The position numbers and the translations under genes were made by a program. Below the pieces are notes generated by a model. That model was given only the letters and a program-made list of their open reading frames with translations. It searched no databases and was not told where the DNA came from. From Myxococcaceae bacterium (GTDB lineage: Bacteria > Myxococcota > Myxococcia > Myxococcales > Myxococcaceae), in the NCBI GenBank assembly GCA_046351675.1, contig JAXLYB010000002.1:128001-192000 (forward strand): 64,000 nucleotides of DNA, in the 5' to 3' direction. Below are positions 34,714 through 50,625 of the stretch, in pieces. Every line of letters starts with the position of its first letter. Position 1 is the stretch's first letter.

Positions 34714-37329
34714 TCACGGCCGGCCGTTCTGCACCCACTGCGCCGCCGCGTCGATCGCGCTCTGGTTGTACGTGAGCGCGCCCGTGTCTTCGTCGACCTG
34801 CACGCGCGCCGCCTTCTGCGCATCGAGCGCCTTTTGCCGCTTCTCGGTCGCCCCGGGCGGCACACCGCCACGCCCGTAGAACGCCGGCGGCGGATCTTCG
34901 AGCGCGTCGGCCGTCTTCTGGCCCAGCACGTGCGCCGCGTTGTCGTGGCGGTGACCGTTGTTGCCGTCGGTGTCGTGCTGCAGCCGCGCGGCGTCGATGA
35001 AGTTGGTCACCTGCTGCTCGGTCCACCCGTTCATCGAGCGCACGAAATCGCCGGGCGTCATGTTGAGCTTCTTCGCGACCGCGCTCACCCACGTGCCGAG
35101 GTTCTGCCCGTCGCCGTTGAAGTCCTTCAGCTGCTCGGCCACCTCGTGCTTCACACCGATGCTCTCGAGCATCTTGCCGAGGTCGTCTTGCTGGCCCTCG
35201 AACGGATCATCGTGGCCCGCGAAGAGCGTGACCACCGCGCCCGCCGCCGCGATGACGCCGCCCGCGATGTTGAGCACCACGCCCGCCGGCGCGCCCGCGA
35301 TGGTGCCGTCGAGGAAAAGGCCCGCGGTCGCCACCGCACCGCCGATGGCCGCCATCGTGTCGCCCACGCCTTCCTGGATCTTCCCGTCCTTGAAGGCGTC
35401 GAAGGCCTGCCAGCCCGAGACCACCGTGCCGAGCACGCCGATGCCCGCGCCCAGCAACTTGCCCGCGGTGAGGCCCACCGTGCTCGCCACTTCTGCGTCG
35501 GTCGCCGCGCTGCTCGCGAAGCGCGAGAGCGTCGAGGCCACGAAGTCGGCGCCCTGCTTCCCGACCGAGAGCGTCTCGGTGATGGTCGCCAGCTTCGTCT
35601 TCATGTCGGCGTCGCTGAAGTTCGCCCAGTCCTTCACCGCGGCGACCGCGCCGAACACCACCGTCAGGCCCTTGAGCGACTGCGAGAGCGCGCTGTCACT
35701 CGCGCCCAACTTGGTGATCTTCGCGCCGGCTTCCTCGGTGAGCTTGCTGAGCTCTTCCTCGGCCATGCCCGGCTTGAACTTGTTGAGCGTCTCGCCGAGG
35801 TCGGCGAGCTTGTCTTCGGTCGTGCCGAGCAGCTTCGCGTTCTTCTGCAGGCCGGCGAGCAGCGCGCTCTTCTCGGCCTCGAAGTTGCCCGTGCTCGCCG
35901 CGTTGAGCAGCGCCACGCCCGAGGCCTGCAGCACCGCGCCCCGCAGCTTCTGGAGGATCTTCGCGCCGTCCTTCACGTCCTTCAGCACGTCCTTCGCCTG
36001 GTCGAGGAACGTGGTGCGGCCCTGGCCCTGCGCCTTCACCGCGTCGCCGATGGCCTGCGCGCCCGCCTTGGTGTTCGCCAGCTCGGGGATGTCCTGCATC
36101 GCGCCCTTCGCCGCCGACACGAGGTCTCCCTCGTTGCCGTACTTCGGGAAGGAGCCACCGCGCCCCGCCGGCACGCGCTCGTTCGCCGCCTTCGTCAGCA
36201 CCGGGTCGGTCGCCGCGAGGCCCGCGCCGTTCTCGACCGACGCCAGCAGCGCGGCCTTCGACTCGAGGTCGTTCGTCGCGTCCTTGAGGTGGTTCTGCTC
36301 GTCGAACGCCTTGAGCGCCTTCGTCTGATCCGCACCGCTGAGCTGCCACTGCGGGAGCTCCTGCGCGAGGCGCACGTGGAGGTCGTCGACCTTCTTGTTC
36401 GCCTCCTCGAAGTCCTTCTTCACGTCGTTGATGGCCTGGCCGACGAACTTCGAGGTGTCGTTGGCCGCGGTGGTCTTGCCCGTGCCCTGCAGTTCGCTCG
36501 CGAGCCGCACGCCGAACGACGCGCCCGCGCCCGACTTGATGCTGTTCTTCAGCATCGTGCCGAACTCGTCGTCGTCGTCGCCGACGTTCTGGTTCTTCAT
36601 CGTGCCGGCGACCGTCTTCACCAGCGCCTGCTGGGAGTCGGCGTCGAGCAACTCGGTGGTGCGGCCCAGCGAATCGAGCGCGGCCTGGCGCTGTTCCTTC
36701 GTCGCGCCCGAGTCCTTGTCGACGACCTTGCGCGAGATGTCTTCGATGGCCGGCTTCGCGGCGTCGAGCAGCTGCTTGCGGTACGCGGGGTCGGGGTTGC
36801 TGGTGACGAGCGACTCGAGCTTCTTCGCCTTGGCCGCCGGGTCCTTGATGGCGTTGACGCTCGCCGCGTCCTTCACCGGGTCGGGCTTCGCGGTCGCCTG
36901 CGTGGCGCTGGTGGCGCTCGTGGCGTTCGCCGCCTTCGCCTGCGCGGCGCGCTCGGCCTGGTCGGCGCTCATCGTCATGCGCACGCCATCGGGGCCGCGG
37001 CCCATGCCGAACGACCGCACGCTCGTGGCCGACAGCTTGAGGTTCGGCTGCTCGATGGCCTTCGCGTCGAGGCCGAGCGCGGCGAGCTTCGTCGAGCTGT
37101 TGCGCCGCAGCGCCCCGCCCTTGCCCGTCGACATCTCGTCCTTCTTGAACTTGTTCGCCTTGGCCTGCGCCTGGGCCTTCGCCTTCGCGGCAGCCTCGGC
37201 GGCCTTCTTCGCGGCTTCGGCGGCGGCCTTGCGACGCGCCTCTTCCGCGGCCCGGCGGCGTGCTTCTTCGGCGGCGCGTTGACGAGCGGCTTCTGCGGCT
37301 GCAGCGGACGACGACGAGCGGGTGGTCAT
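34714..37329 (-). CDS. Large Ala/Lys/Asp-rich alpha-helical protein with C-terminal Gly-zipper hydrophobic hairpins (pore-former/translocator-like)
   Basis: The N-terminus is [24 protein letters not shown] coiled-coil. Two hydrophobic GxxxG-rich segments lie near residues 640-720 ([22 protein letters not shown]... and [43 protein letters not shown]). There is no N-terminal signal peptide. Confidence 0.55.
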
Positions 37330-37501
37330 GGGCGTGGGGCCTCCGAGGAGAGTCTTCGCAGCGGGAACGCGCACGACTTTCCCCCGCGAAACGAAGCGAC
37401 TTTACAGGGTCGCACGCGCGGCCTGGATTGATCAGGGAAGACTGACGCTTCCGCGTGACACCGACGTGTCGGTGCAGGTGCGCAACAGCGTGTCTTCTTC
37501 T

Positions 37502-38551: not shown

Positions 38552-39030
38552 AGCCCTCGCCGCTCGTGGTGGTGGTGTTCGGCCTGCCGGGCGCGGGGAA
38601 GACCTTCGTCGGTCGCCAGCTCGCTGCGCAGCGCGGAGCCCACTTCCACGACGGTGACGCCGACCTGCCGGCTGACATGCGCGCGGCCATCGACGCCGCA
38701 CAGCCGGTGACCGATGAGATGCGCGAGCGCTTCGTCGACGCACAGGTGGCGCGGGTGAAGTCGTTGCTCGGCGCCCACGCGACCGTGGTGCTCGCGCAGA
38801 CGTTTCCGAAGCAGGTGCACCGTGAGCGCTTCGCGCGGGAGTTTCCACGCGTGGAGTGGGTGCTCGTCACCGCGCCCGACGCGCTGCGGGCGGAGAGAAT
38901 TGCGCACCGGTCGCACCAGCCGCTCGATGCGGCGTATGCGAAGCGCATGGCGTCGTTCTTCGACGCGCCGCCTGCGGGGACGAGGGTGGTGGTGAATGAT
39001 GGCGTGAGGCCGCTGCCGACCTCGGGCTGA
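38548..39030 (+). CDS. Gluconokinase/IdnK-family P-loop kinase (AAA_33-like)
   Basis: GTGA overlap with the cyclophilin stop. Walker [21 protein letters not shown]...TDEMRERF parallels GntK F.DGDDLHP...DEDR. Confidence 0.6.
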
Positions 39031-39342: not shown

Positions 39343-39511
39343 CGATGCGCGTGACGTTCGCGGCGGCTGGCGCTGGCAGCGTCACACGCACGGTGCTCTC
39401 TCGATGCGCGTGACGTTCCCGGCGGCCAGCGCTGGCAACGTCACACGCACGGTGCTCTCGATGCGCGTGACGTTCCCGGCGGCCAGCGCTGGCAACGTCA
39501 CACGCACGGCG
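39343..39511. repeat. Three tandem ~57-bp direct repeats, each containing an inverted repeat (GTGACGTT...AACGTCAC)
   Basis: Units begin at 39343, 39403 and 39460 (gatgcgcgtgacgttcccggcggccagcgctggcaacgtcacacgcacggtgctctc). Copies 2 and 3 are identical for ~55 bp and copy 1 differs at 3 positions. The array abuts the stop codon of the 1058-aa gene. Confidence 0.6.
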
Positions 39512-42500
39512 TCACAGCTCGACTTCCGTCACCCGCCCATGCTCATCGGCGATGCCCAGCCGATCGTGCGCCAGCTCCCGCAGCGTGACCTGCCGCGTCC
39601 CCGCCAGCCGCGCCACCAACCGCATCGGCGCTTCGCTCGCCAGCGACGCAATCAGTGACGGCGACCAATCGACCACCGACACCTCGGTGCTCCCGTTCAC
39701 CACCCGCGCCAGCACCAACCCCGCATCCATCGGGAGCTGCTGCCACCCACTCGCGTCCAACACCCGCTCGCGCACCGTCGTCGCACCCGAGCGCGGCAGG
39801 ATCTTCAACGTCAGGGTCAGCCGCGCGTCGTCGCGCACCTTGAACGACCACGTCACGAGATCACCGCTGCGCCACCACGCGAAGTCCGACGGGTCGAGCC
39901 GTCGCTCGAGGGTCTGCGCGCCGACCTCGAACACGATGCGCCGCGACTCGTTCTGCGCCAGCTCGGTGCCGAGCGCCGAGACGAACCGCCCCTGGGCGTC
40001 GAGGTCACGCGCGTTGAACTGCGGCACGCGCCACCACTCCATCGCGGCGGGCGTCGCCGGGTCGAGCAGCACCAGCGAGCGTTCCATGCCGACCGCCCAG
40101 CACAGGCCGTCGAAGCGCCGCGAGAACGCGTCGATGCCCGCCTGGAACCAGCTGTCGATGCCGAAGTGCAGCGGATCGAGCCGCCACACCCGCGTGAGCG
40201 CGCCGTCGAGCGAGAGCACCAGCACGCGCGACCCGAGCGGCCCCACCACCAGCGCATCGGCCTTCACGAGGTGGTGCTTGAGCGTCTGCCCCGAGGGAGA
40301 CACCACCTTGAGCCCCGCCGCCCCGAGCGCCAGCACGCGACGGCCCTTCGGCAGCGGCGCGACGTCGAACACCCGCAGCTGCGACGCGATGGGCGCGGGC
40401 ACTTCGAGCGGCTGCCGCTCTCGCGCAGGCCGCGGCGGCGCGTTCGGCACTGCGTCGGCGACGAGCACGCGGTCGTTGGTCGACTTGAGCACTTCCTGCA
40501 CGAGGTATCGGTCGACGGGCCGGCCATCGCTCGCGTCGCGCATCAGCTCGCGCCACAGGTCGCGGTGAATCGGCCCCGTCGCCGCGGGCGCGTGCTTGAG
40601 CAACGACTGCGCGGCGAGCGGCAGGAGCGCGCGGTCTTGCTCGATGACCTCCCGCAGGCGCACGCGCGCGTCGTCGAGGTGCTCGGGGTTCCGACGCAGG
40701 TCGGTCGCGAGCGCGGTCACCGCCGCGGCGCCGCCGACCTCCAGCGCCTGGTCGCGCCAGCTCGCCCATTGCTCAGGCGCCTCGCCCAGCGGCGCGGTGG
40801 CGAGCAGCGCCTCCGCCCAGCGCTGGCGCTGCGCGAGGTAGTCGCCCCAGATGACGCGCAGCCGCGTGGCGACCTCGTCGGACCGGGGCGTCAGCGCGGT
40901 GATCAACGCCTCGAAGTCGTGGCTCCCGCGCACCAGCCGCAGCGCCTCGTCGGTGCGGCCAGCGAGCAGCCACAACCGAATGCGCTCGGTGTCGGACAGG
41001 TGCTGCGCGGTGGCGACCTGCGCGGCGAGCTCAAAGCGGCCGTGCTTTTCGAGCAGCGCCACCGCGGCCGTCGCGTCGTGGAGCAGCTTCGCGAGCACGA
41101 ACGCCGCCTCGTCGATCTGCCCGCGCGCGATGAGCGCGTCGGCGGTCTCGCGGTAGAACTTCCGCATCGCCTCGAACTCGCCGTCGGGCACGATGACCGC
41201 GGCGCCACCACGCGTCGGCGGCGTCAGCAGCGAGAGCGAATCGCGGCGAAACGGCGTGATGCCCGTGGTGGTGCGCACCGGACCAACGCCCCCGTTCGCG
41301 AGCGGCACCGCGCGGCGGAGCGCTTCACCGAGGTTTTCCTCGAAGGCGCGCCGCAGCTCGTCGAAGTAGCGGTCGGGCCGCTGCGCCGGGGGACGCGAAG
41401 CGCTCGCGGTGTCGCCGCCACGGAACCAACGGCCGAGCGACGCGAAGAACCCACCTTCGCCCGCCGCGACGGGAGGAACGGGCGGAACGATTCCCCCCGA
41501 GCCACGCGCGCCGTTGCCGCGGAACCAGCGACTGAAGGACGAGAGGAAGCCGCGTCCGCCCGGAGTGACTGGAGGGGCAGGAGGAACGACGGGAGGCAAA
41601 GCGAGACGCGAGGTCCGCTGCGTGCGCCGTGTGCCGTCGCCGCCGAGCCACGCGCGGAGACGTGACCAGAGTCCCGGACTGCGCGGTCGCGCGTCGTCTT
41701 CAACCGGCCGGCGAGCGAGCGGGCCGGGCGGTGGAGGTTGTTCGTCAGCTGCGGGCGGACGCGGCGCGCCGCCAAGCCACGCGCGGAGACGCGACCAGAG
41801 TCCTGGGCCGCGCGGTGGCGCGTCGTCTTCAACCGGTGCGAGCGGGCGCTGTTCGTCAGCTGCGGGCGGCGGGAGCGCGGTCGGCTGTTGCGCACCGCCG
41901 AGCCACGCACGGAGACGCGACCAGAGACCCGCGTCACGAGGTGGTGGAGCCGCGGGTGGGTCTTGCTCTTCGACGGGCGGAGGGAGCGCGGGAGGTGCTC
42001 CACCACCGAGCCACGCGCGAAGCCGAGCCCACATTCCCGGGGGAGTAGGAGACTGATCAGCACCATCGACACCCGGCTCGACCGGCAGCGCGTTCTGCTC
42101 GGGGCCGCGACGATTCGCCCACCACTGCGCGAGCCGCTCGCGCCACGTCGGCGGGGGCGGCGGTTCCGGCACCGGAGGCGGCGCTGGCGGACGACCCTGC
42201 GCGGCGAGTTGCTCGAGCAGCGGCGCGAAGAGTTCGTCGAGTGACTGACGCGCTGGCGCGGGCGCGGGTGGCGCGACGGGGCGAGGCGGGGGCTCGAGCG
42301 TCGCGACCTGCTCCACCCGTGGCGTGGGCAGTGAGAGCAGTGTCGAGGGGTGCACCGCGAGCGTCGCTGAGAACGTGACGGTGCGGAGAGTTCCCGCAAT
42401 GAGATCGACCAACGCGTCGCGTGGCACGTCGGCGAGCGCCGCCGGATCGAGCGCCGTCGTCAGCCAGCGCCCGTCGAACTGCACCACGGGCAGGCCCGGC

Positions 42501-42688
42501 GCTTCCCGCGAATCGACGCGCCGCCCGCGCAGGCCGACGAGGTACCAGCGCGTCCCGTCGCGGAAGAGGCGCGCGCCGTCGGTCCACGAGGCGAGTACGC
42601 GCTCGACCACGCGTGCGCGGCCCACCAGCGCCTCGTCGAACACGAAGCCGCTTGCGTGCACCGAGCCGAAGAAGGGCTGCGCGCTCAT
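39512..42688 (-). CDS. 1058-aa hypothetical protein with Pro-rich tandem peptide repeats (GLWSRLRAWLGG motif x5) and helical plus beta-rich C-terminal domains
   Basis: Last gene of the MoxR operon. Four to five repeats of ~40 aa (PPRDAGLWSRLRAWLGGAQQP...). High GC3 throughout. Alternative-frame ORFs inside it were discarded. Confidence 0.6.
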   Translation of the reverse strand: MSAQPFFGSVHASGFVFDEALVGRARVVERVLASWTDGARLFRDGTRWYLVGLRGRRVDSREAPGLPVVQFDGRWLTTALDPAALADVPRDALVDLIAGTLRTVTFSATLAVHPSTLLSLPTPRVEQVATLEPPPRPVAPPAPAPARQSLDELFAPLLEQLAAQGRPPAPPPVPEPPPPPTWRERLAQWWANRRGPEQNALPVEPGVDGADQSPTPPGMWARLRAWLGGGAPPALPPPVEEQDPPAAPPPRDAGLWSRLRAWLGGAQQPTALPPPAADEQRPLAPVEDDAPPRGPGLWSRLRAWLGGAPRPPAADEQPPPPGPLARRPVEDDARPRSPGLWSRLRAWLGGDGTRRTQRTSRLALPPVVPPAPPVTPGGRGFLSSFSRWFRGNGARGSGGIVPPVPPVAAGEGGFFASLGRWFRGGDTASASRPPAQRPDRYFDELRRAFEENLGEALRRAVPLANGGVGPVRTTTGITPFRRDSLSLLTPPTRGGAAVIVPDGEFEAMRKFYRETADALIARGQIDEAAFVLAKLLHDATAAVALLEKHGRFELAAQVATAQHLSDTERIRLWLLAGRTDEALRLVRGSHDFEALITALTPRSDEVATRLRVIWGDYLAQRQRWAEALLATAPLGEAPEQWASWRDQALEVGGAAAVTALATDLRRNPEHLDDARVRLREVIEQDRALLPLAAQSLLKHAPAATGPIHRDLWRELMRDASDGRPVDRYLVQEVLKSTNDRVLVADAVPNAPPRPARERQPLEVPAPIASQLRVFDVAPLPKGRRVLALGAAGLKVVSPSGQTLKHHLVKADALVVGPLGSRVLVLSLDGALTRVWRLDPLHFGIDSWFQAGIDAFSRRFDGLCWAVGMERSLVLLDPATPAAMEWWRVPQFNARDLDAQGRFVSALGTELAQNESRRIVFEVGAQTLERRLDPSDFAWWRSGDLVTWSFKVRDDARLTLTLKILPRSGATTVRERVLDASGWQQLPMDAGLVLARVVNGSTEVSVVDWSPSLIASLASEAPMRLVARLAGTRQVTLRELAHDRLGIADEHGRVTEVEL
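41640..42050 (-). repeat. ~120-bp tandem coding repeats (3-4 copies) underlying the GLWSRLRAWLGG peptide repeats
   Basis: gagccacgcgcggagacgcgaccagagtcc recurs near 41645, 41768, 41886 and 42010. Confidence 0.5.
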
Positions 42689-42712
42689 GTCGGCAGCCTC
42701 GTGGCGACGGTT

Positions 42713-42864
42713 TTCTTCTCACCCCGACCCTCTGCTCCTCGGGAGGAGAGGGAGACGCGCGCGTAGGCCGGCAGCCTCCTGCCGATGGCTTTCTCCTCAC
42801 CCCGACCCTCTCCTCCTCGCGAGGAGAGGGGGCCGCAACCCCGAGCCTCTCCTCCGCTCATGGC
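42713..42864. repeat. Two and a half tandem REP-like units in the 169-bp gap between the 589-aa and 1058-aa genes
   Basis: cggcagcctc..ggttttcttctcaccccgaccctctgctcctcgggaggagagggagac, then ccggcagcctcctgccgatggctttctcctcaccccgaccctctcctcctcgcgaggagagggggcc, then a partial ccccgagcctctcctcc. Confidence 0.6.
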
Positions 42865-44627
42865 AGCTCCTTCCCCGCATCGCGCACGTGGAGCCTCAGC
42901 ACGGTCTCCTTGCGCGTACGGCTGTGCACGCCAATCTCACCGTTCACATCGCGCCACGCGAAGACCTCGCCGTGCACCCATGCCGTCGCGACCTCGATCT
43001 GCGCGCGCGCCCGGGCCTCGATGATCCACTGCGGCGCGGTCTGCCCGGTGTCGAGCGAGCGAATCGTGCGCCCGTCCTTGCCGACCGCGATCACCGTCAC
43101 GCCATCGTTCTCACTGTTGGGCCACAGCGTCGCGCACACCGCGACGGGACTCGCGCCGTCGAAGACCTGCGCCGGCAGCGTGCGCACCCGCACCGCCTGG
43201 TGGCCGGCCAGCATCTCGACGCGGCCCGGGTAGGTGCACATCGCCAGCACGCCCAGCCGATTCGACCACCCGAGCACCGCGTGCAGCGGCAGCTCGTTCA
43301 AGTAGAGCTGGCGCACGAGGCCGCGCTTCACCACCTGGCTGCCGCCGAGTCCGAGCCCGACCACGCCATCACCCAGCTGCGTCGCCCAGTGCAGCGAGCC
43401 GTCGACCGCGCGGAGCGAGCGCGCGTCGTAGAACTTCCGCTCGAACACCCAGCCCGCCTCGAGCGGCCACGCCGAGAGGAAGAGCTGATCAGCCGTCGGC
43501 ATCGGCGCCGACGCCGAGACGCGCCCGCCGAGGTGCCCATCCCAATCGCTCGCGAAGACCGCGCCGTCTTGCCACGCGAGCGTCACGCCCCTCGCGCGCT
43601 TGCTCGACCACGCCGCCGAGACGAGGCGCGCACCCGCGGGGAGGTTCGCGACCGACGGCCAGCCGAAGCCCGCGCGCGCCGTGTTGCGCAGCGGAATCGC
43701 CACCACCGAACCCGATTCGGTGCGCGCGAGCAGCCGGTGGCCGTCTTGCGAGAAGGCGAGCTCGGTGTGGGGCGCGAGCGGAATCGGCGAGCCCTGCTTT
43801 CGGCGGTGCGTCGGGTTGACCTTCGGGCGCGTCCACCCGAACGGGTCGCGCAGCACGCGCAGCTGCGTCGCCTCGTCGGGCAGCGCGAGCTCGAGCGTGC
43901 GCGGTCGCGCCTGGCGCGCGGTCGTCAGCGACAGCTTCAGCGCCCCGGTCGTGTCGGCGTCGTCGACCACCAGCATGCTCCAGCGCCGCGGCGTCACGAG
44001 CGGGGCGAGGTGCGCGCTGCCCACCACCAGCACGTCGCGCTCGACGCCGTCGTCGACCCAGGCGTCACGCCAGCGATCGAGCAGCGCCGCGGTCGGCACG
44101 TGCGGGTTGCGCGAGTCGAGCCACGCCTGCACCGACGCCTGCGTGAGCGCCTCGTGCGGCGGGAGCTCGAACATCCACAGCGGCGCCCAGCGCAGCCGCA
44201 CGCCCGCCTCTCGCGCGCGACGGGCGAAGGCGACGAGGGCCGCGAGCTGCGCGATGCGCGGTGCGCCCTGCTGTGCGGGGCCGGTGTCGAGCAGCAGCCA
44301 TGCTTCGAGCGCGACCTTCGGGGAACGGCGTTCGAGCTCGACGAAGAGCTGCTCGCCCGAGGTCGCGCGGCGAATGAACTCGTCGGGGGCCTCGAGCTGG
44401 AGCGCCCACTCCGACGCGAGCAGGCGTTCCCACGGGCCGCGGCGGCCGAGGCCCGAGTAGCCGTGCGGGTCGTCGGCGTGCGTCTCGTCGCGCACCTTGA
44501 GCGGACCGAGGATGTTCTGGAGCCGCTCGGCGAGCGGGGCGAGCGCGCCGAGCAGCTCGCGCGCGAACAGGCGGAGCTCGGGTTCCCACGCGTCGAGGTG
44601 CCGTGGCCAGGGCGCGAGTTCACTCAT
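42858..44627 (-). CDS. 589-aa hypothetical protein (third gene of MoxR operon), beta-rich C-terminal half
   Basis: ATG at 44627 (MSELAPWPRHLDAW). The first ~110 codons of ORF 42858-44969 are Arg-rich, include the REP element, and were discarded. Confidence 0.5.
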   Translation of the reverse strand: MSELAPWPRHLDAWEPELRLFARELLGALAPLAERLQNILGPLKVRDETHADDPHGYSGLGRRGPWERLLASEWALQLEAPDEFIRRATSGEQLFVELERRSPKVALEAWLLLDTGPAQQGAPRIAQLAALVAFARRAREAGVRLRWAPLWMFELPPHEALTQASVQAWLDSRNPHVPTAALLDRWRDAWVDDGVERDVLVVGSAHLAPLVTPRRWSMLVVDDADTTGALKLSLTTARQARPRTLELALPDEATQLRVLRDPFGWTRPKVNPTHRRKQGSPIPLAPHTELAFSQDGHRLLARTESGSVVAIPLRNTARAGFGWPSVANLPAGARLVSAAWSSKRARGVTLAWQDGAVFASDWDGHLGGRVSASAPMPTADQLFLSAWPLEAGWVFERKFYDARSLRAVDGSLHWATQLGDGVVGLGLGGSQVVKRGLVRQLYLNELPLHAVLGWSNRLGVLAMCTYPGRVEMLAGHQAVRVRTLPAQVFDGASPVAVCATLWPNSENDGVTVIAVGKDGRTIRSLDTGQTAPQWIIEARARAQIEVATAWVHGEVFAWRDVNGEIGVHSRTRKETVLRLHVRDAGKELP

Positions 44628-45129
44628 GGGCAACTCCCTCTCCTCCCGAGGAGCTCCCGAGGAGGAGAGGGTTGGGGTGAGGAGGAGAACCCCTCGGCGC
44701 CAGGGAGTTCCTGGCCCACGCCTCGAGACGAATCGGATCGATCGGCCCCGCTCTGCCGACCGGCAACAGCACCGGCACCCCACCGACGTCTCGCACCACG
44801 CACGGCCAGTCGACACCGGGCTGCGACGACCGCCACGCATGCTCGAGCCACGACGCCGGCACCGACAGCGCGCCCCGCATCGCCTGCTGCGCGGTGGGCA
44901 CCAGCAGCCACGGCGCGTCCGGCTCCCGACCGAAGTACTGCGCGCCGTCGACCCACGGCAGCTCGTCACCCGTCAAGGCGAGCACGTTCCCCGCGACGAC
45001 GCCGCGCAGCTGCGCGAGCCGCGGACTCCCGGCGAGCCGGCGCGCCAACGCCCGGGCCGCCTCGCCCTCGACCACCACGTATTCCGGCTGGAGCGTGGGC
45101 CAACGCGGCGCCCAGTGCAGCTCGTCCAT
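44620..45129 (-). CDS. 170-aa hypothetical protein (second gene of MoxR operon); its C-terminus reads through the REP element
   Basis: MDELHWAPRWPTL... A GGAG Shine-Dalgarno lies 8 bp upstream. Start is 23 bp after the MoxR stop. The C-terminal residues PRGSPPHPNPLLLGSSSGGEG are encoded by the hairpin repeat, so the true stop is uncertain. Confidence 0.35.
   Translation of the reverse strand: MDELHWAPRWPTLQPEYVVVEGEAARALARRLAGSPRLAQLRGVVAGNVLALTGDELPWVDGAQYFGREPDAPWLLVPTAQQAMRGALSVPASWLEHAWRSSQPGVDWPCVVRDVGGVPVLLPVGRAGPIDPIRLEAWARNSLAPRGSPPHPNPLLLGSSSGGEGVAHE
44631..44695. repeat. REP-like unit in inverted orientation at the junction between the small ORF and the 589-aa gene
   Basis: ccctctcctcccgaggagctcccgaggaggagagggttggggtgaggaggagaa is the reverse complement of the 42790 unit. 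Confidence 0.55.
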
Positions 45130-45151
45130 CACGACTCCACGGTGAGGCTGA

Positions 45152-46252
45152 TCAGGCCAGCGCGTCGACGATGAGCGCGCGGCGACTCTTGAGGCTGTCG
45201 GGCAACGTGTCGCTCGAGAACGCCGCGTCGATGTCGCGCGCCACGCCCTCGAGCTGCAGGCGCCACCGGTCGTCGCGCACCTCGGCGACGAGCAACTGCG
45301 CCGCGCGGTCATCGAGCAGCTTCGCGCGCGCCGCGCGTCCCTGGGTCGCCTCGAGCGCCGCGCCCGGCGTCGCGTCGTTGGCCGCCCCTTCGAGCTGCTG
45401 CTTGAGCACCGTGCGCGCCAACGCCTGCTGCTCCGCGGTCGGCAACGCGAAGACCAGCGGCCAGAGGTCCTCGGCCTCGGCACGGGAACGCCCCGCGAGG
45501 GTCGCCGCGGCGGCGATGAGGCGCTGCACGCGCACCAGGCGCCGGTCGGTCAGCTCCACGCCGGCCTGCCGCAGCAACCGCACGCACTGCGCGTAGAGCG
45601 GGCGAATGCCCGAGAGATCAGCGCCGTCGGCCGCGCGCGCGAGCACGTCGAGGTCGTCGATCGACGCCACCGCCACCGGCCGCTTCGGCCGCGCGCCGAG
45701 CAGGTCTTCGAGCAGCGCGTCGGGGAGCGGCTCGACGAAGGTGCGCAGCAAGAAGCGGTCGGCGAAGGCCGCGAGCGCGTCTTCGGTGGGCAGCGCGTTC
45801 GACGCGCCGACGCACACCCGCAGCGGCACCTGGAGTTGCGACTTGCCGCGCCGAAACGTGCGCTCGTTGAGCAACCCCAGCAGCGTGTTGAGGATCGCCG
45901 ACGAGCCGAGGAACACCTCGTCGAGGAAGGCGATGTCGGCCTCGGGCAGCATGCCGCCGACCTCGGTCTCCACCACGCCCTCGCGCAGCTTGCGCAGGTC
46001 GACCGGCCCGAAGATTTCAGACGGCTCGGTGAAGCGGCCGAGCAGGTACTCGAAGTACCGCGCCTCGAAGACCTGCGCCGCGCGCCGCGCCGCGAGCGAC
46101 TTGGCGGTGCCGGGCGGGCCGATGATCAGCAGGTGCTCCTCGGCGACCGCGGCCAGCAACACCAACTCGACCAGCACGTCGCGCGCGACGAGCCCGTCCC
46201 TCGCGGCCGCCAACGCCTGACGCACCCGACCCAGTGCCGTGCTCTCCGTCAT
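45152..46252 (-). CDS. MoxR/RavA-like AAA+ ATPase
   Basis: Walker A IIGPPGTAKS, Walker B IAFLDEV, sensor/Arg-finger region LNERTF...ASNALP. Start MTESTALGRV at 46252. The 41 upstream codons of the ORF are probably not coding. Confidence 0.75.
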   Translation of the reverse strand: MTESTALGRVRQALAAARDGLVARDVLVELVLLAAVAEEHLLIIGPPGTAKSLAARRAAQVFEARYFEYLLGRFTEPSEIFGPVDLRKLREGVVETEVGGMLPEADIAFLDEVFLGSSAILNTLLGLLNERTFRRGKSQLQVPLRVCVGASNALPTEDALAAFADRFLLRTFVEPLPDALLEDLLGARPKRPVAVASIDDLDVLARAADGADLSGIRPLYAQCVRLLRQAGVELTDRRLVRVQRLIAAAATLAGRSRAEAEDLWPLVFALPTAEQQALARTVLKQQLEGAANDATPGAALEATQGRAARAKLLDDRAAQLLVAEVRDDRWRLQLEGVARDIDAAFSSDTLPDSLKSRRALIVDALA

Positions 46253-46437
46253 GGTCGCCGGACTGTACTCGCGCCGCCCCCCTGACCACTGCCGTTCACA
46301 CTCTGGAGCGCGAGAGCACCACTGCGCTGTCGTGATCCCGGGCGACACCCGCGGGTGACGAAGGAAGATTCGAGTCAATCTGTGATGTTGGCGTCGCTGG
46401 CGTCGCGGCGTCAGCGTTGCAACACCGCGTCACTCCG

Positions 46438-48084
46438 ATGCCGAGGCTGACCCCACTCCTCCCCGTGCTGCTGGTGTTGAGCGCCTGTGAAGGCGCCATC
46501 GTCGGCGACCGCGCCGCGCCGCCCGACGCCCCGACGACGCCCCCCGTGGTCGAGCCCGAGCTGCCCGCGTTCGCGCCCGCGCCGCTGCGTCCGCGGCTGC
46601 TCCTCGGCGCGCAGTACCTCGCCGCCATCACCGACCTCCTTGGGCCCGAGGCCGCGCGCCCGGTGACGCCGCCGGCCGACGTGCCGGTGAACGGGCTGAC
46701 CGCCATCGGCGCCACGGTGCTCGAGGTCAGCTCGTCCGCGGTGACGCAGTACGAAGACAACGCGTACCTCGCCGCGACCGCCGCGCTCAACGCGCGCCGC
46801 GCGAGCCTCATCACCTGCACGCCGAGTTCGAGCACCGACGCCACGTGCATGCGCCAGGTCGCGACGCGCTTCGTGCCGCGCGCGTTCCGCCGCCCCGCGA
46901 CGACCGTCGAGCTCGACCGGTGGACGCAGGTCGGCCTCACCGCGGCGCAGGCGTACGACGACTTCGACCAGGGCGTGCTCTTTCTCTTCGCGGGGCTGCT
47001 GCAGTCGCCGGCGTTCCTCTACCTCGACGAGACCGGCGAGCCCGACCCCGCGGACGCGAGCCGCCGCCGCCTCACCTCGTACGAGCTGGCCAACCGCCTC
47101 GCGTTCTTCCTCACCGGCGCTCCGCCCGATGATCAACTGCGCGCAGCGGCCGCGGCTGATCAGCTCCACGACGAAGCCACGCTGCGCGCGCAGGCCACGC
47201 GCCTCCTGCAGAAGCCCGAGGCCCGCACCGCGATGACGGCGTTCTTCGACGAGCTGCTCGGGTTGCAGGGCCTCGACCACCTCGCGAAAGACACGGTGCG
47301 CTTCCCCGGCTTCGACGCGGTGACGCTCGGCCGCTCGATGAAGGAAGAGACGCGCCGCACGCTGCTCGACCTCGCCTTCGACGCGCCCGCCGACTTCCGC
47401 GACGTGCTGACGCGCCAGACCACCTTCGTCGACGGCCCGCTCTCGCGGCACTACGGGCTGACGCCGGTCACGCAGTGGTCGAAGGTCACGCTGCCCGCCG
47501 GGCGCGGCGGCCTGCTCACCCAGGGCGCGTTTCTCTCGCTGCAGTCGCACCCCTCAGCCAACTCGCCGACCTACCGCGGGCGCTTCATTCGCGAGACGCT
47601 GCTCTGCCAGACCGTGCCCGCGCCGCCGCCCGACGTGAACACCACCCTCCCCGCGCCGCCGGCCAACACCCAGCGCACGCTGCGCCAGAAGGTCGAGCTG
47701 CACATGAGCGTCACCGGCTGCAGCGGCTGCCACCAGCTGATGGATCCACCGGGCTTCGCGTTCGAGGGCTTCGACGCCACCGGCCACGCGCAGTCACTCG
47801 ACGACGGCTTGCCGGTCGACACCACGGGCACGTTCGAAGACAAGGGCAGCTTCTCCGACGCACCGGGCCTCGTCGCACTGCTCCACGACGACCCGCGCAT
47901 CGTCTCGTGCCTCGCGCGGCAGGCGTTCCGCCAGGGCACCGGTCACGTCGACCTGCCCACCGAGGCGCGCCCCCTGAAGAAGGCCACCGAAGGCTTCGCC
48001 GCCGCGGGCTACCGCTGGCAGGCGCTGCTGGTCGAGCTGGTCGTGTCCGACGCGTTCCGCACTGGCGCCCCGGAGGCCCCGTGA
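46438..48084 (+). CDS. DUF1592/DUF1588/DUF1585-family secreted protein (planctomycete-type PSD/PSCyt architecture)
   Basis: Lipobox LLVLSAC. Conserved heme-like motif VTGCSGCHQLMDPPGFAFEGFDATG. Confidence 0.7.
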   Translation: MPRLTPLLPVLLVLSACEGAIVGDRAAPPDAPTTPPVVEPELPAFAPAPLRPRLLLGAQYLAAITDLLGPEAARPVTPPADVPVNGLTAIGATVLEVSSSAVTQYEDNAYLAATAALNARRASLITCTPSSSTDATCMRQVATRFVPRAFRRPATTVELDRWTQVGLTAAQAYDDFDQGVLFLFAGLLQSPAFLYLDETGEPDPADASRRRLTSYELANRLAFFLTGAPPDDQLRAAAAADQLHDEATLRAQATRLLQKPEARTAMTAFFDELLGLQGLDHLAKDTVRFPGFDAVTLGRSMKEETRRTLLDLAFDAPADFRDVLTRQTTFVDGPLSRHYGLTPVTQWSKVTLPAGRGGLLTQGAFLSLQSHPSANSPTYRGRFIRETLLCQTVPAPPPDVNTTLPAPPANTQRTLRQKVELHMSVTGCSGCHQLMDPPGFAFEGFDATGHAQSLDDGLPVDTTGTFEDKGSFSDAPGLVALLHDDPRIVSCLARQAFRQGTGHVDLPTEARPLKKATEGFAAAGYRWQALLVELVVSDAFRTGAPEAP

Positions 48085-49445
48085 AGCTCTCTCGCCGTCA
48101 CCTCCTGCGCGGTGCGGGCGCGGTGCTCGCGCTGCCCGCCCTCGACGCGATGTTCGATTCCAACGGGCTCGCGTTCGCCGCCGACGGGATGCCGCCGCCG
48201 CGCCGCTTCATGACCTGGTTCTTCGGCAACGGCGTCATCCGCAGCAAGTGGACGCCCGCGCAAGTGGGCACCAGCTACGTGCCGACCGAGCAGCTCGCGC
48301 CGCTGGTCGACGCCGCGCGCAACATCGACGTGCGCGGTGACGTGTCGGTGCTCTCGGGCTTCAACGTGAAGACGCCCAACGTGCGCGGCCACCACAACGG
48401 CGCCGGCGCGTTGCTCTCGGGCGCGCCCGTCATTCCGCTGCCGCCCGGCGGTGCGCCGTACAACTCGAAGTTCGGAATGATGTCGGTCGACCAGGTCGCC
48501 GCCGACGCCATCGCGGGCGACACGCGCTTCAAGTCGCTGCAGCTCGCGGTGAGCAAGCGCTACACGACCGGCGAGGGCCCGACGCTCGCCAACTGCTCGC
48601 ACCGCGGCCCCGACTCGCCGATGCCGCAGGAAGTGAACCCCGCGCGCCTCTTCAACACGGTGTTCGGCGGCTTCACCCCGAAGGACCCGCGCGACCCGAG
48701 AGATCAGCTCCGAGCCTCGGTGCTCGACGCCGTGAAGGACGACGCGAAGGCGCTGCAGGGCAAGCTGGGCGCGCGCGACCGGGCGCGGCTCGACGCGCAC
48801 CTCACCGGCGTGTCCGAGCTGCGCACCCGCATTCTCGCGCTCCCGCCGGTCATCACCTCGTCGTGCGCGCTGCCGATGCAGCCCACGCAGACCAACGTCG
48901 ACGTGAGCGGCGTCGAGCCCATCGAGCAGGTGTCGACGCTGATGAGCGACCTGCTGGCGATGGCGTTCGCGTGCGACCTGACCCGCGTCGCCTCGTTTCA
49001 GTTCTCGGGCTCGGTGGGCGGGCACTGCTTCAAGTTCCTCACGCCGAACGACCCGCGCGACACCGAGCACTCCATCACCCACGACGCCGCGCAGCAGGAC
49101 AAGGTGAACGAGGCGGTGAAGTTCACGATGCGGAACTTCGCGTACACGCTCGCGGCGCTGAAGAAGACGATGGACAGCCCGACCACCAACGTCTTGCAGA
49201 ACACGGTGGTGCTCTGCACGAGCGACGTCGCCGAGGGCATCGACCATTCCATCAACGACTACCCGGTGCTGCTCGCCGGCCGCGCGGGTGGCGCGCTCAA
49301 GTCGGGCTACCACTTCCGGTCCACCACGGGCCGCAACACGAGCGACATCCTCCTCACCGCGCTCACCGCGCTGGGCACCGGCATCTCGTCGGTCGGCAAG
49401 GACAGCGGGCTCTCGACGACGCCCATCGCCGAGCTGCTCGCCTGA
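48081..49445 (+). CDS. DUF1552-family Tat-exported protein (partner of DUF1592)
   Basis: GTGA overlap. SRRHLLRGAGAVLALPALDAMF twin-arginine signal. Conserved body also seen in the paralog at 60204-61769. Confidence 0.75.
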   Translation: MKLSRRHLLRGAGAVLALPALDAMFDSNGLAFAADGMPPPRRFMTWFFGNGVIRSKWTPAQVGTSYVPTEQLAPLVDAARNIDVRGDVSVLSGFNVKTPNVRGHHNGAGALLSGAPVIPLPPGGAPYNSKFGMMSVDQVAADAIAGDTRFKSLQLAVSKRYTTGEGPTLANCSHRGPDSPMPQEVNPARLFNTVFGGFTPKDPRDPRDQLRASVLDAVKDDAKALQGKLGARDRARLDAHLTGVSELRTRILALPPVITSSCALPMQPTQTNVDVSGVEPIEQVSTLMSDLLAMAFACDLTRVASFQFSGSVGGHCFKFLTPNDPRDTEHSITHDAAQQDKVNEAVKFTMRNFAYTLAALKKTMDSPTTNVLQNTVVLCTSDVAEGIDHSINDYPVLLAGRAGGALKSGYHFRSTTGRNTSDILLTALTALGTGISSVGKDSGLSTTPIAELLA

Positions 49446-49475: not shown

Positions 49476-50582
49476 ATGAGCGCTGATGACGCCGCGGGCC
49501 TGCACCGACCGAGGAAGGCCGCGCGCTGGTTGCTCGCGACGCTCGGCATCGCGGTGCTGCTCGCGGTCGGCACGCTGGTGGCGCTGCAGCAGACCTTTCG
49601 CCGGCTCGGAGTCGACGCGCAGGCCCGCTACCTCGCGCTGAAGCAACCGTGGCTGCACGCGGGCACGCGCGACGGCGACGAGCTGGAATGCATCAACGCC
49701 GCGATGTTGAGCGCGAGCCCGCCGTCGGTCGACGACCTGCGCGCCGGGAAGGCGGTCACGCCCGAGGCGTTGAACGAATCGGCGGCGTGGGTCGACCGCG
49801 TGCTCGACTGCACCGAGCGACGCGCGCTCTTGCAGGACCCGGAGCACCTCGTCGGCTGGGGCAAGGACGAGCCGGTGCAGCAGCGCAGTGACGTGGTGTT
49901 CTCGGCGGCGGTGAAGGTCGCCGCGCAGCGGGGCGCGACCGAGGAGAACGCCGAGCGTTGCGTGCGTTTGCTGCGGCTCGCCGCCGACCTCTCGCAGCTC
50001 GGAGAGACCTGGTCACTCAACCCGCGCGAGACGGTGCTCGAGGCGCTCGGCCCGTGCCTGAGCGTGCTGGCGAAGGTCGAGTCCCGGGCCGAGCGCGCGA
50101 AGCAGGTCGACGAGGTGGGCGCGCGCTTCATCTCCAACCGCCGCACGGTGGAAGAGATCAACGCCCACTGGGAGACGCGCTCGCTCTGGCGGTGGATTCC
50201 GCCCGAGCAGCGACGAATGCCTGCGCCGCAGTCGGTCGAGCAGCAGTGGTGGATGGAGTGGGACGAAGCGCGCGCGGTGCGGCGCATGCACGCGTTCGCG
50301 GTGCAGCTCGCCGAGGTGGCCGACACGCCGGGGCCGGAACGGGAGGCGCGCTCGAAGGCGCTCGACGACGCGGGCCGTACTCTGCTTGACGACACGCGCA
50401 AGCCCGAGCTCGAGCGGTTTCTGCAGGAAGCCGACGTGGTGCACGCCACGCTGAAGTGGGCCGCGGCGGTGTTGCGGCGCGAGTCGCCGACGTTGCCCGA
50501 TGGCGCCCGCCTCGATGGCACGACTGTCGAGTTGCGGCTGCGCGCGCTCGGTAGCTATCGCGTGCCGCTACCGGCCGAGTGA
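49476..50582 (+). CDS. Hypothetical membrane-anchored protein
   Basis: One N-terminal transmembrane helix (WLLATLGIAVLLAVGTLVAL). The rest is helical. Confidence 0.45.
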   Translation: MSADDAAGLHRPRKAARWLLATLGIAVLLAVGTLVALQQTFRRLGVDAQARYLALKQPWLHAGTRDGDELECINAAMLSASPPSVDDLRAGKAVTPEALNESAAWVDRVLDCTERRALLQDPEHLVGWGKDEPVQQRSDVVFSAAVKVAAQRGATEENAERCVRLLRLAADLSQLGETWSLNPRETVLEALGPCLSVLAKVESRAERAKQVDEVGARFISNRRTVEEINAHWETRSLWRWIPPEQRRMPAPQSVEQQWWMEWDEARAVRRMHAFAVQLAEVADTPGPEREARSKALDDAGRTLLDDTRKPELERFLQEADVVHATLKWAAAVLRRESPTLPDGARLDGTTVELRLRALGSYRVPLPAE

Positions 50583-50625
50583 CTCCTCCTCACCCCGACC
50601 CGGTCTTCACGTAGTCTCCGCGCCC

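What the first reader, a model, noticed from the sequence alone, without database searches (positions are those of the whole stretch)
39512..46252. MoxR-type AAA+ ATPase operon with a 170-aa, a 589-aa and a 1058-aa repeat-bearing protein, punctuated by hairpin repeats at each junction
Seen in sequence: four co-directional minus-strand genes. They are a MoxR-like ATPase with intact Walker A/B (45152-46252), a 23-bp gap, a 170-aa ORF, a 589-aa protein and a 1058-aa protein. The largest protein has five Pro-rich ~40-aa tandem repeats centred on GLWSRLRAWLGG, encoded by ~120-bp DNA repeats at 41640-42050. REP-type hairpin copies lie exactly at the 170/589 junction (44631-44695, inverted) and between the 589-aa and 1058-aa genes (42713-42864, two and a half tandem copies). 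A separate 3 x 57-bp tandem array with internal palindromes abuts the stop of the last gene (39343-39511). Established knowledge: MoxR ATPases usually pair with a vWA protein and frequently anchor multi-gene cassettes, including predicted NTP-dependent conflict systems. Inference: none of the three partner proteins shows an obvious vWA MIDAS motif (DxSxS) in the supplied translation. The cassette may therefore be a non-canonical MoxR system in which the big repeat protein is the effector or scaffold. Hairpins at every junction suggest differential mRNA processing or stability along the operon.
Basis: partly seen in the sequence, partly recalled or inferred. Interest (0 to 1): 0.7.

Follow-up and report, generated by a model that had tools for sequence, protein, structure and literature searches.

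The report
Known MoxR–vWA–propeller cassette, REP-invaded
The four genes are an ordinary member of an already described but never experimentally tested bacterial cassette (a MoxR ATPase, a small protein, a hidden vWA domain fused to a beta-propeller, and a large partner protein), and the hairpins are copies of a genome-wide repeat that landed recently in this strain's operon.

Summary

Three of the four proteins hit Pfam families built for the "MoxR-vWA-beta-propeller ternary system" of Kaur et al. 2020: bpMoxR, bpX5 and bpX6. The MoxR has that class's GxxxTAKS P-loop.

The gene order MoxR–bpX5–vWA/propeller–bpX6 protein recurs in about 70 of 80 species-representative genomes from several phyla.

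The hairpins are a dispersed REP element with 7 copies in the 64-kb window. Orthologous operons lack them at these sites and have 4–8-nt gene overlaps instead. One copy is fused in frame to the end of bpX5.

The Trp/Arg motif array (6–7 copies here, 0–2 in relatives) lies where some orthologues carry transmembrane helices, so it is probably a multivalent membrane anchor.

Function remains inferred. Interest is low to moderate.

The parts
46253..46416 (-). Divergent intergenic region upstream of MoxR. This is the probable promoter region of the operon. It contains TTGACT at 46379-46374.
   Evidence: Read from the sequence. The consensus sigma-70 scan found no site. Inference only.
45152..46252 (-). 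bpMoxR AAA+ ATPase, 366 aa, with P-loop GPPGTAKS and Walker B LDEVF.
   Evidence: Pfam PF20030 bpMoxR, E 1.3e-78, 263 bits against a cut-off of 27; also AAA_5 and AAA_lid_8. Orthologues are 365-369 aa.
44620..45132 (-). bpX5 small protein, 170 aa (169 aa if the ATG at 45129 is the start). The last 27 aa or so are encoded by a REP element.
   Evidence: Pfam PF19921 bpX5, E 1.5e-11. Orthologues are 135-147 aa and end just after RLEAW.
44630..44709 (.). REP insertion of about 80 nt fused in frame to the 3' end of bpX5. The hairpin is at 44634-44671. Its 3' arm supplies a GGAGG just upstream of the 589-aa start codon.
   Evidence: DNA alignment with L008 and L004 shows the block is absent in the relatives, while the start/stop overlap CC(A/G)TG(A/G)GTGA is kept.
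42858..44627 (-). vWA-beta-propeller component, 589 aa. It has a conserved N-terminal helical segment (aa 1-100), a vWA fold (about aa 104-262, nt 43842-44318) and a beta-propeller (about aa 285-589, nt 42861-43775).
42689..42857 (.). A 169-nt block of two and a half REP copies between the 589-aa and 1058-aa genes. The 7-mer ATGAGCG is present at both ends (42855-42861 and 42682-42688).
   Evidence: Relatives have a 4-nt GTGA/ATGA overlap at this junction.
39512..42688 (-). Third component, 1058 aa. It has a bpX6 domain (aa 8-156, nt 42221-42667), a Pro-rich linker with 6-7 Trp/Arg amphipathic motifs (aa 181-424, nt 41417-42148), a conserved helical TPR-like region (aa 436-760, nt 40409-41383) and a conserved beta-rich C-terminal region (aa 765-1058, nt 39515-40396).
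   Evidence: Pfam PF19922 bpX6, E 4.4e-12, found in 29 of 29 orthologues. The linker is 22% Pro. There are weak TPR_GEMI5/TPR_ELP1 hits in some orthologues and a weak six-bladed-propeller (DFPase) hit at E 0.07.
39343..39509 (.). A 57-bp tandem array of 2.9 copies, each with a 12-13-bp palindromic stem. It lies in the convergent intergenic region after the last gene and is probably a hairpin terminator or 3'-end stabiliser.
   Evidence: TRF. It occurs only here in the window. RNA fold -109 kcal/mol, z -4.7. The downstream gene is convergent (AAA_33 kinase on the + strand, ending at 39030).

Best explanation

Shown here:
- Family membership of MoxR, bpX5 and the bpX6 protein.
- A cryptic vWA fold plus beta-propeller in the 589-aa protein. 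The MIDAS site is replaced by a conserved D-x-G-P-x-Q-L-G-x-P-R motif.
- Strict conservation of gene order across phyla.
- Lineage-specific REP insertions and motif-repeat expansion.

Inferred mechanism:
- None of the four proteins begins with a signal-peptide-like hydrophobic N-terminus (read by eye from the translations; no predictor was run), so they are probably cytoplasmic.
- The MoxR hexamer docks the vWA adaptor, as in midasin-MIDAS, NorQ-NorD and RavA-ViaA.
- It uses ATP hydrolysis to remodel a complex between the vWA-propeller protein and the 1058-aa partner.
- The partner is held on the inner face of the membrane by a multivalent array of short Trp/Arg amphipathic helices. Some orthologues use true transmembrane helices at the same position.
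- Remodelling would expose or release the partner's N-terminal bpX6 module as the output, possibly in response to an invader.

The REP hairpins are secondary insertions of a genome-wide element. The bpX5 insertion preserved the reading frame and the start/stop overlap, so translational coupling is kept. The 57-bp palindromic array marks the 3' end of the operon.

The confidence of 0.6 is a blend: about 0.9 for membership of the class and about 0.4 for the mechanism.
For: - Pfam: bpMoxR at 263 bits, bpX5 at 44.6 bits and bpX6 at 46.6 bits, each against a cut-off of 27.
- The published description matches point by point: GxxxTAKS P-loop, a divergent vWA strictly followed by a beta-propeller, a third component with a variable N-terminal region and membrane segment plus TPR and propeller, and extra small linked genes.
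- Family-wide motif: D114 in 164 of 169, G116 in 168, P117 in 157, Q119 in 159, G121 in 169, P123 in 164 and R124 in 169 sequences. There is no Asp after beta4.
- Synteny: in 80 species-representative loci, same order and strand, MoxR is present in 74, bpX5 in 68 and the third component's C-terminal part in 69. Several of the misses lie where the locus is cut by a contig end.
- Flanking genes differ between loci, so the cassette is self-contained.
- Orthologues carry 0-2 motifs, or transmembrane segments (P0036, P0061, P0063), in the same linker. Two copies of an amphipathic membrane-targeting sequence bind membranes much more strongly than one (PMC6158289).
Against: - No experiment exists for any member of this class. 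A full-text search for 'bpMoxR' found no paper.
- PADLOC has no model matching any of the four proteins.
- The neighbouring genes are not a defence island.
- Foldseek against the PDB gave no significant hit for the vWA model. Its best probability, 0.72, was nevertheless the same midasin MIDAS entry.
- The TPR and propeller assignment of the 1058-aa C-terminal half rests only on weak hits (E 0.07). hhalign found no internal repeats.
- The two putative propellers show no detectable homology to each other.
- The hydrophobic moment of the GLWSRLRAWLGG unit is only moderate (0.26-0.44), against 0.58-0.74 for the GF-type units.
Confidence: 0.6

Rival explanations
1. The Trp/Arg motif array is not a membrane anchor. 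It is a set of short linear motifs in a disordered Pro-rich linker that are bound multivalently by a beta-propeller (its own or that of the vWA protein), or are captured by the modified vWA site. In that case they are the peptide 'handle' on which MoxR-vWA acts.
Against: Orthologues have real transmembrane helices in the same linker, and the published class description includes a membrane-spanning segment there. Both favour a membrane role. The number and sequence of the motifs are not conserved (0-2 in relatives), which is unexpected for a specific docking motif.
Confidence: 0.2
2. The cassette is a housekeeping MoxR-vWA assembly chaperone for a membrane or envelope complex, in the manner of RavA-ViaA, NorQ-NorD or CoxD-CoxE, rather than a conflict or immunity system.
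Against: No conserved client gene lies next to the cassette, and the flanks differ in every locus examined. The N-terminal part of the third component diverges much faster than its C-terminal part (tblastn detects it in 36 of 80 loci against 69 of 80), as expected for conflict-type modules. Distribution across phyla is patchy.
Confidence: 0.25
3. One reading: a vWA-less, non-canonical MoxR operon whose junction hairpins are a built-in device for differential mRNA processing or stability.
For: There is no DxSxS motif, and the 589-aa protein has no Pfam hit. Strong hairpins are present. From general knowledge of E. coli, REP hairpins can stabilise upstream mRNA, so some effect on relative expression is plausible.
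Against: A vWA fold is present. The class is already described. The hairpins are absent from orthologous operons at these sites. They are copies of a dispersed repeat, and the MoxR/bpX5 junction has none.
Confidence: 0.05

Closest known systems
Beta-propeller-containing MoxR-vWA ternary systems (vWA-MoxR subsystem 4 of Kaur et al., eLife 2020, PMC7159879; Pfam bpMoxR PF20030, bpX5 PF19921, bpX6 PF19922)
   Same: The MoxR clade and its GxxxTAKS P-loop. A divergent vWA with an incomplete MIDAS, fused to a C-terminal beta-propeller. A third large protein with an N-terminal globular module, a membrane-associating linker and a helical plus beta-rich C-terminal half. An extra small linked gene. No conventional effector. 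The same conserved gene order.
   Different: This copy has no transmembrane segment; it has 6-7 tandem Trp/Arg amphipathic motifs, the largest number seen among 36 relatives. REP elements were inserted at two junctions, one in frame. The propeller model has about 26 strands (six to seven blades), against the paper's 'about four'.
Characterised MoxR-vWA pairs: RavA-ViaA, NorQ-NorD, CbbQ-CbbO, and midasin/Rea1 AAA ring with its MIDAS domain
   Different: Those vWA domains have a metal-binding MIDAS (DxSxS...T...D). Here only the first Asp survives and a different conserved motif, DxGPxQLGxPR, takes its place. No client enzyme is encoded nearby. The vWA is fused to a propeller.
Esr threat-sensing pathway of oral Actinomycetes (bioRxiv 10.64898/2026.09.08.750141)
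   Same: MoxR plus vWA plus a beta-propeller-bearing sensor protein. This pathway is an experimentally supported example of such a module relaying a threat signal.
   Different: Esr includes Ser/Thr kinase, phosphatase and FHA components, surface-exposed filamentous sensors and an Esx secretion output. None of these is present here, and all proteins here look cytoplasmic.
REP/BIME elements of enterobacteria and in-frame Rickettsia palindromic elements (recalled from general knowledge, not tested here)
   Same: Short GC-rich palindromic units that are dispersed, often lie just after stop codons and are sometimes tandem. One copy here is translated in frame, as reported for Rickettsia palindromic elements.
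   Different: The sequence family is different (core GAGAGGGTYGGGGTGAG next to a CCCTCTCC...GGAGAGGG hairpin) and is found in Myxococcota MAGs. No RAYT transposase was looked for.

Membership tests
Beta-propeller MoxR-vWA ternary system (Kaur et al. 2020) | MoxR AAA+ ATPase of the bpMoxR clade | tested here: met
   PF20030 at 263.3 bits against a cut-off of 27, E 1.3e-78.
Beta-propeller MoxR-vWA ternary system (Kaur et al. 2020) | P-loop variant GxxxTAKS (frequent in this class and in the FtsH class) | tested here: met
   GPPGTAKS at aa 45-52 of the MoxR translation. The feature is described.
Beta-propeller MoxR-vWA ternary system (Kaur et al. 2020) | [quoted passage not shown] | tested here: met
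Beta-propeller MoxR-vWA ternary system (Kaur et al. 2020) | Third conserved component with a variable N-terminal globular region and a membrane-spanning segment | tested here: inconclusive
   The bpX6 domain is present (46.6 bits). No transmembrane segment is present (best 19-residue Kyte-Doolittle hydropathy window 1.66, in the helical region). The linker instead carries 6-7 amphipathic motifs. Orthologues P0036, P0061 and P0063 have transmembrane segments at that position.
Beta-propeller MoxR-vWA ternary system (Kaur et al. 2020) | [quoted passage not shown] | tested here: inconclusive
   TPR_GEMI5 and TPR_ELP1 hits occur in 4 and 2 of 29 orthologues. There are Sel1/IFT122 TPR and DFPase propeller hits at E 0.07-0.7. 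hhalign detected no internal repeats.
Beta-propeller MoxR-vWA ternary system (Kaur et al. 2020) | Conserved operonic linkage of the components | tested here: met
   MoxR in 74, bpX5 in 68 and the third component in 69 of 80 loci, in the same order and strand. Gene calls in four contigs agree.
Beta-propeller MoxR-vWA ternary system (Kaur et al. 2020) | Role in biological conflict | not testable with these tools
   This is a prediction in the source paper. There is no PADLOC hit and no experimental paper was found.
Canonical metal-dependent vWA (MIDAS) adaptor of MoxR ATPases | MIDAS motif DxSxS after beta1 and a second Asp after beta4 | tested here: not met
   The site reads D114-T-G-P-A-Q. Family-wide it is D-x-G-P-x-Q-L-G-x-P-R, and the position after beta4 is Gly (Asp in 9 of 169). 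The paper notes such exceptions in this class.
REP (repetitive extragenic palindromic) elements | Short palindromic unit that is dispersed in many copies and lies mostly just outside genes | tested here: met
   Seven copies in 64 kb against 0 expected. The hairpins fold. The other four copies sit at ORF ends. One copy here and two in L009 are inside bpX5 reading frames.
REP (repetitive extragenic palindromic) elements | Association with a RAYT (REP-associated tyrosine transposase) in the genome | not tested
   Only a 64-kb window was available and no search was made.
MinD/FtsA-type amphipathic membrane-targeting sequence | Short helix with a hydrophobic face flanked by basic residues that binds the membrane | tested here: inconclusive
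   On a helical wheel L, L, L, W and W fall within a 120-degree arc flanked by the two Arg. The hydrophobic moment is 0.26-0.44 for GLW units and 0.58-0.74 for GF units. Binding itself cannot be tested here.

The most novel reading that the evidence does not exclude
There are two readings.

1. The tandem Trp/Arg motif array is a copy-number-tunable avidity module. Replication slippage on the ~120-bp DNA repeats would add or remove amphipathic helices. That would set how tightly the third component sits on the membrane, or on a propeller, and so set the threshold at which the MoxR-vWA machine can pull it off.

2. The compact, overlapping-gene cassette is a recurrent landing site for a Myxococcota REP element that becomes translated. 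This is seen at three different in-frame positions in bpX5 orthologues. If so, REPs are a source of new coding sequence in this phylum, as Rickettsia palindromic elements are in Rickettsia.
Probability: 0.2. Interest if true: 0.5.

Novelty: new member of a known kind. Interest (0 to 1): 0.3.

Why it matters
It removes an apparent oddity. The supposedly vWA-less MoxR operon is a standard member of a large, published but unstudied family, with more than 1000 sequence clusters for the vWA-propeller protein alone.

The useful by-products are these:
- A structural confirmation that the Pfam-orphan 589-aa component is vWA plus propeller, with a family-wide replacement motif, DxGPxQLGxPR, at the MIDAS site. 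This gives a concrete target for mutagenesis.
- Evidence that the membrane-associating linker of the third component switches between transmembrane helices and repeated amphipathic motifs.
- Clear examples of REP elements translated in frame.

None of this changes the view of the system's biology, which remains untested.

Tried and rejected
- Sequence searches of the 589-aa protein against Pfam, NCBIfam and PADLOC gave nothing.
- Its family profile against PDB sequences gave only weak WD40 hits (E 0.018 at best) for the C-terminal half and nothing for the vWA part.
- Foldseek against the PDB on that model was not significant.
- The first homologue search with the whole 1058-aa protein found only 6 proteins, probably because of the low-complexity linker. 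Repeating it with residues 435-1058 found 35.
- Profile-profile comparison of the two putative propeller-bearing proteins found no relationship.
- hhalign self-comparison found no blade or TPR periodicity in the 1058-aa C-terminal half.
- PDB profile searches with that half and with bpX5 gave nothing significant.
- Rfam found no RNA family anywhere in the window.
- The promoter and terminator consensus scans found nothing in 38.8-46.8 kb.
- Strain comparison of the 57-bp array's copy number failed, because the second assembly has a run of N there.
- Assembly artefact was considered and rejected as an explanation for the protein repeats, because an independent contig is identical.

Full report
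**Source and layout**

The window has about 70% G+C. The 589-aa protein is identical to a protein of a MAG named "Myxococcaceae bacterium".

- a 366-aa ATPase at 45152-46252;
- a 170-aa ORF at 44620-45132;
- a 589-aa ORF at 42858-44627;
- a 1058-aa ORF at 39512-42688.

Upstream there is a 165-nt divergent intergenic region facing a DUF1592-family gene. Downstream the next gene, an AAA_33 kinase ending at 39030, is convergent. The four genes therefore form a self-contained unit.

**Check of the repeats**

Tandem Repeats Finder confirms the 57-bp array at 39343-39509, with 2.9 copies and 94% matches. The repeat finder confirms:
- four DNA copies spaced 129/126/108 nt at 41640-42040;
- two 78-nt tandem units plus a partial third at 42679-42855;
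- the inverted relationship between those units and the element at 44634-44684.

In the protein the units are G[LM]W[SA]RLRAWLGG at aa 218, 254, 296 and 339. Two diverged units, GFLSSFSRWFRG and GFFASLGRWFRG, lie at 380 and 413. A related TWRERLAQWWANRRG lies near 181. That makes six to seven units rather than five.

An independent JGI metagenome contig (L007) is 100% identical across 39459-42110, so the coding repeats are real. The same contig has a run of N in the 57-bp array.

**What the cassette is**

Pfam assigns the ATPase to bpMoxR (PF20030, 263 bits), the 170-aa protein to bpX5 (PF19921) and the N-terminus of the 1058-aa protein to bpX6 (PF19922). All three families are named for the "MoxR-vWA-beta-propeller ternary system".

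The source paper is Kaur et al. 2020 (PMC7159879). It describes this class as follows:
- a MoxR that often has a GxxxTAKS P-loop;
- a divergent vWA component that strictly carries a C-terminal beta-propeller, with a subset lacking one or both MIDAS aspartates;
- sometimes additional small linked genes;
- no conventional effector.

The MoxR here reads GPPGTAKS.

**The hidden vWA**

The 589-aa protein has no hit in Pfam, NCBIfam or PADLOC. It has 28 homologues of about 590 aa, apart from itself.

The MIDAS DxSxS is replaced by D114-T-G-P-A-Q. Across 169 family representatives the site is a nearly invariant D-x-G-P-x-Q-L-G-x-P-R, and there is no Asp after beta4. This is a conserved replacement, not decay.

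A profile of the family finds 1641 clusters at 50% identity in 1.84 billion representatives, 1009 of them at E<=1e-30.

**Linkage**

Gene calls on four contigs from relatives show the order MoxR, bpX5, the ~590-aa protein and the bpX6 protein. Most stop and start codons overlap by 4-8 nt, and the flanking genes are unrelated between loci.

In 80 loci from species-representative genomes, tblastn finds MoxR upstream in 74, bpX5 in 68 and the C-terminal part of the third component downstream in 69. All are on the same strand and in the same order, and several misses lie where the locus is cut by a contig end. These genomes span Myxococcota, Acidobacteriota, Armatimonadota, Pseudomonas, Massilia and Lysobacter.

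The N-terminal bpX6 part is detected in only 36 of the 80 loci. This is consistent with faster divergence of that end.

**The 1058-aa protein**

Relatives are 806-1029 aa, and this is the longest seen. The extra length is the linker between bpX6 and the conserved helical region.

In that linker, relatives carry 0-2 Trp-containing amphipathic motifs or genuine hydrophobic segments. P0036 has two such segments, and P0061 and P0063 have one each. The window protein carries six or seven motifs and has no transmembrane segment. The linker is 22% proline.

On a helical wheel the L, L, L, W and W of GLWSRLRAWLGG fall within a 120-degree arc flanked by the two arginines. Hydrophobic moments are moderate for these units and high for the GF-type units. 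From memory, not verified here, the units resemble the MinD and FtsA membrane-targeting helices. Tandem copies of such helices are known to bind membranes far more strongly than single ones (PMC6158289).

I therefore favour a multivalent peripheral membrane anchor that replaces the transmembrane helices of other orthologues. A role as repeated docking peptides for a propeller or for the vWA site is the main alternative.

Sequence evidence for TPR plus propeller is only weak.

**The hairpins**

The REP core GAGGAGAGGGTCGGGGTGAGGAG occurs seven times in the window, allowing up to 3 mismatches, against none expected by chance. Four copies lie at unrelated gene ends: 10347, 13983, 25626 and 50586.

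*bpX5/vWA junction.* DNA alignment with the two closest relatives shows an insertion of about 80 nt in the window, immediately before the conserved ATGAGTGA start/stop overlap. It extends bpX5 in frame by about 27 residues, LAPRGSPPHPNPLLLGSSSGGEGVAHE. Orthologues end just after RLEAW.

*589/1058 junction.* Relatives have a 4-nt overlap. The window has a 169-nt block of REP copies bounded by the 7-mer ATGAGCG at 42855-42861 and 42682-42688. The junction was therefore duplicated together with the insertion, which preserved both the stop and the start codon.

*Other junctions and relatives.* The MoxR/bpX5 gap has no hairpin. Relatives carry REP-like elements at other positions:
- L004 has one in the MoxR/bpX5 gap.
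- L009 has two inside bpX5, in frame. One lies just after the start codon and one in an internal loop.

The hairpins are thus recurrent, lineage-specific invasions of a compact operon and not a conserved regulatory design. Because ribosomes translating bpX5 read through the 44.6-kb hairpin, translational coupling to the next gene should survive. This last point is an inference.

The 57-bp palindromic array occurs only once in the window. It folds very stably (z -4.7) and sits in a convergent intergenic region, so it probably acts as a hairpin terminator or 3'-end protector. This too is an inference.

**Function**

No member of this class has been studied experimentally, as far as the searched library shows.

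The mechanistic model is carried over from characterised MoxR-vWA pairs and from Kaur et al. In it, a MoxR ring acts through the vWA adaptor to remodel a membrane-associated partner.

A recent preprint shows that a MoxR-vWA pair with beta-propeller sensors relays a threat signal in Actinomycetes. That pathway also has kinase, FHA and Esx components, which are absent here.

A housekeeping assembly role cannot be excluded. There is no effector, no defence-island context and no PADLOC match.

**Verdict**

It is wrong in two respects: the vWA is not missing, and the hairpins are not a designed feature.

This is a new member of a known, computationally defined class with some lineage-specific decoration.

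Noticed in passing
L009:1125-1610 (uncultured Myxococcales MAG); window 44630-44709: REP elements are translated in frame inside bpX5 orthologues at three different positions. In L009 one lies just after the start codon (SLPLPAKRGEGRGEG) and one in an internal loop (MAPHPDPLPASAGRGS). In the window one lies at the C-terminus. This resembles the in-frame palindromic elements of Rickettsia.
   Followed up: partly
window 44330-44480 (aa 50-100 of the 589-aa protein): The most conserved stretch of the vWA-propeller family is DEPxGYxxLxRRGPxERLLxSEWxLxxExPDEFxRRAxxGExLF. It lies N-terminal to the vWA domain and is modelled with low confidence (pLDDT 40-70). It may be the MoxR-docking or pore-inserting segment. 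No explanation was tested.
   Followed up: no
L020:3290-5480 and the other Corallococcus loci (L021, L024, L026, L027, L029, L030): In Corallococcus the MoxR and bpX5 genes are separated by about 1-3 kb (2.2 kb in L020). In L020, the only locus whose ORFs were listed, the spacer holds ORFs without significant Pfam hits (for example L020:4100-4855, 251 aa). These are possibly the additional linked genes mentioned by Kaur et al.
   Followed up: partly
window 46417-49445 (+); L001:15566-17776: A DUF1592/DUF1588/DUF1595/DUF1585 protein and a DUF1552 (HXXSHH) protein lie next to the cassette in the window. The same pair also lies near the cassette in an Archangium MAG, but on the other side. This is probably coincidental synteny within Myxococcaceae.
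   Followed up: no
window 39343-39509; L007:2653-2790: The 57-bp palindromic array is replaced by a run of N in an otherwise 99.9-100% identical metagenome contig. Its true copy number in the population is unknown.
   Followed up: partly
window 50500-55332 (+), 32033-34696 (-), 34714-37374 (-): The neighbours include a 1610-aa M36 fungalysin-type metallopeptidase with PA and PKD domains, an M16 peptidase pair, and an 886-aa Ala/Lys-rich protein with no Pfam hit.
   Followed up: no
L002:12523-13005: In one relative, a SUKH/SMI1_KNR4 immunity-type protein and a Ser/Thr kinase lie directly downstream of the cassette. This is the only conflict-flavoured neighbour seen in the loci inspected.
   Followed up: no
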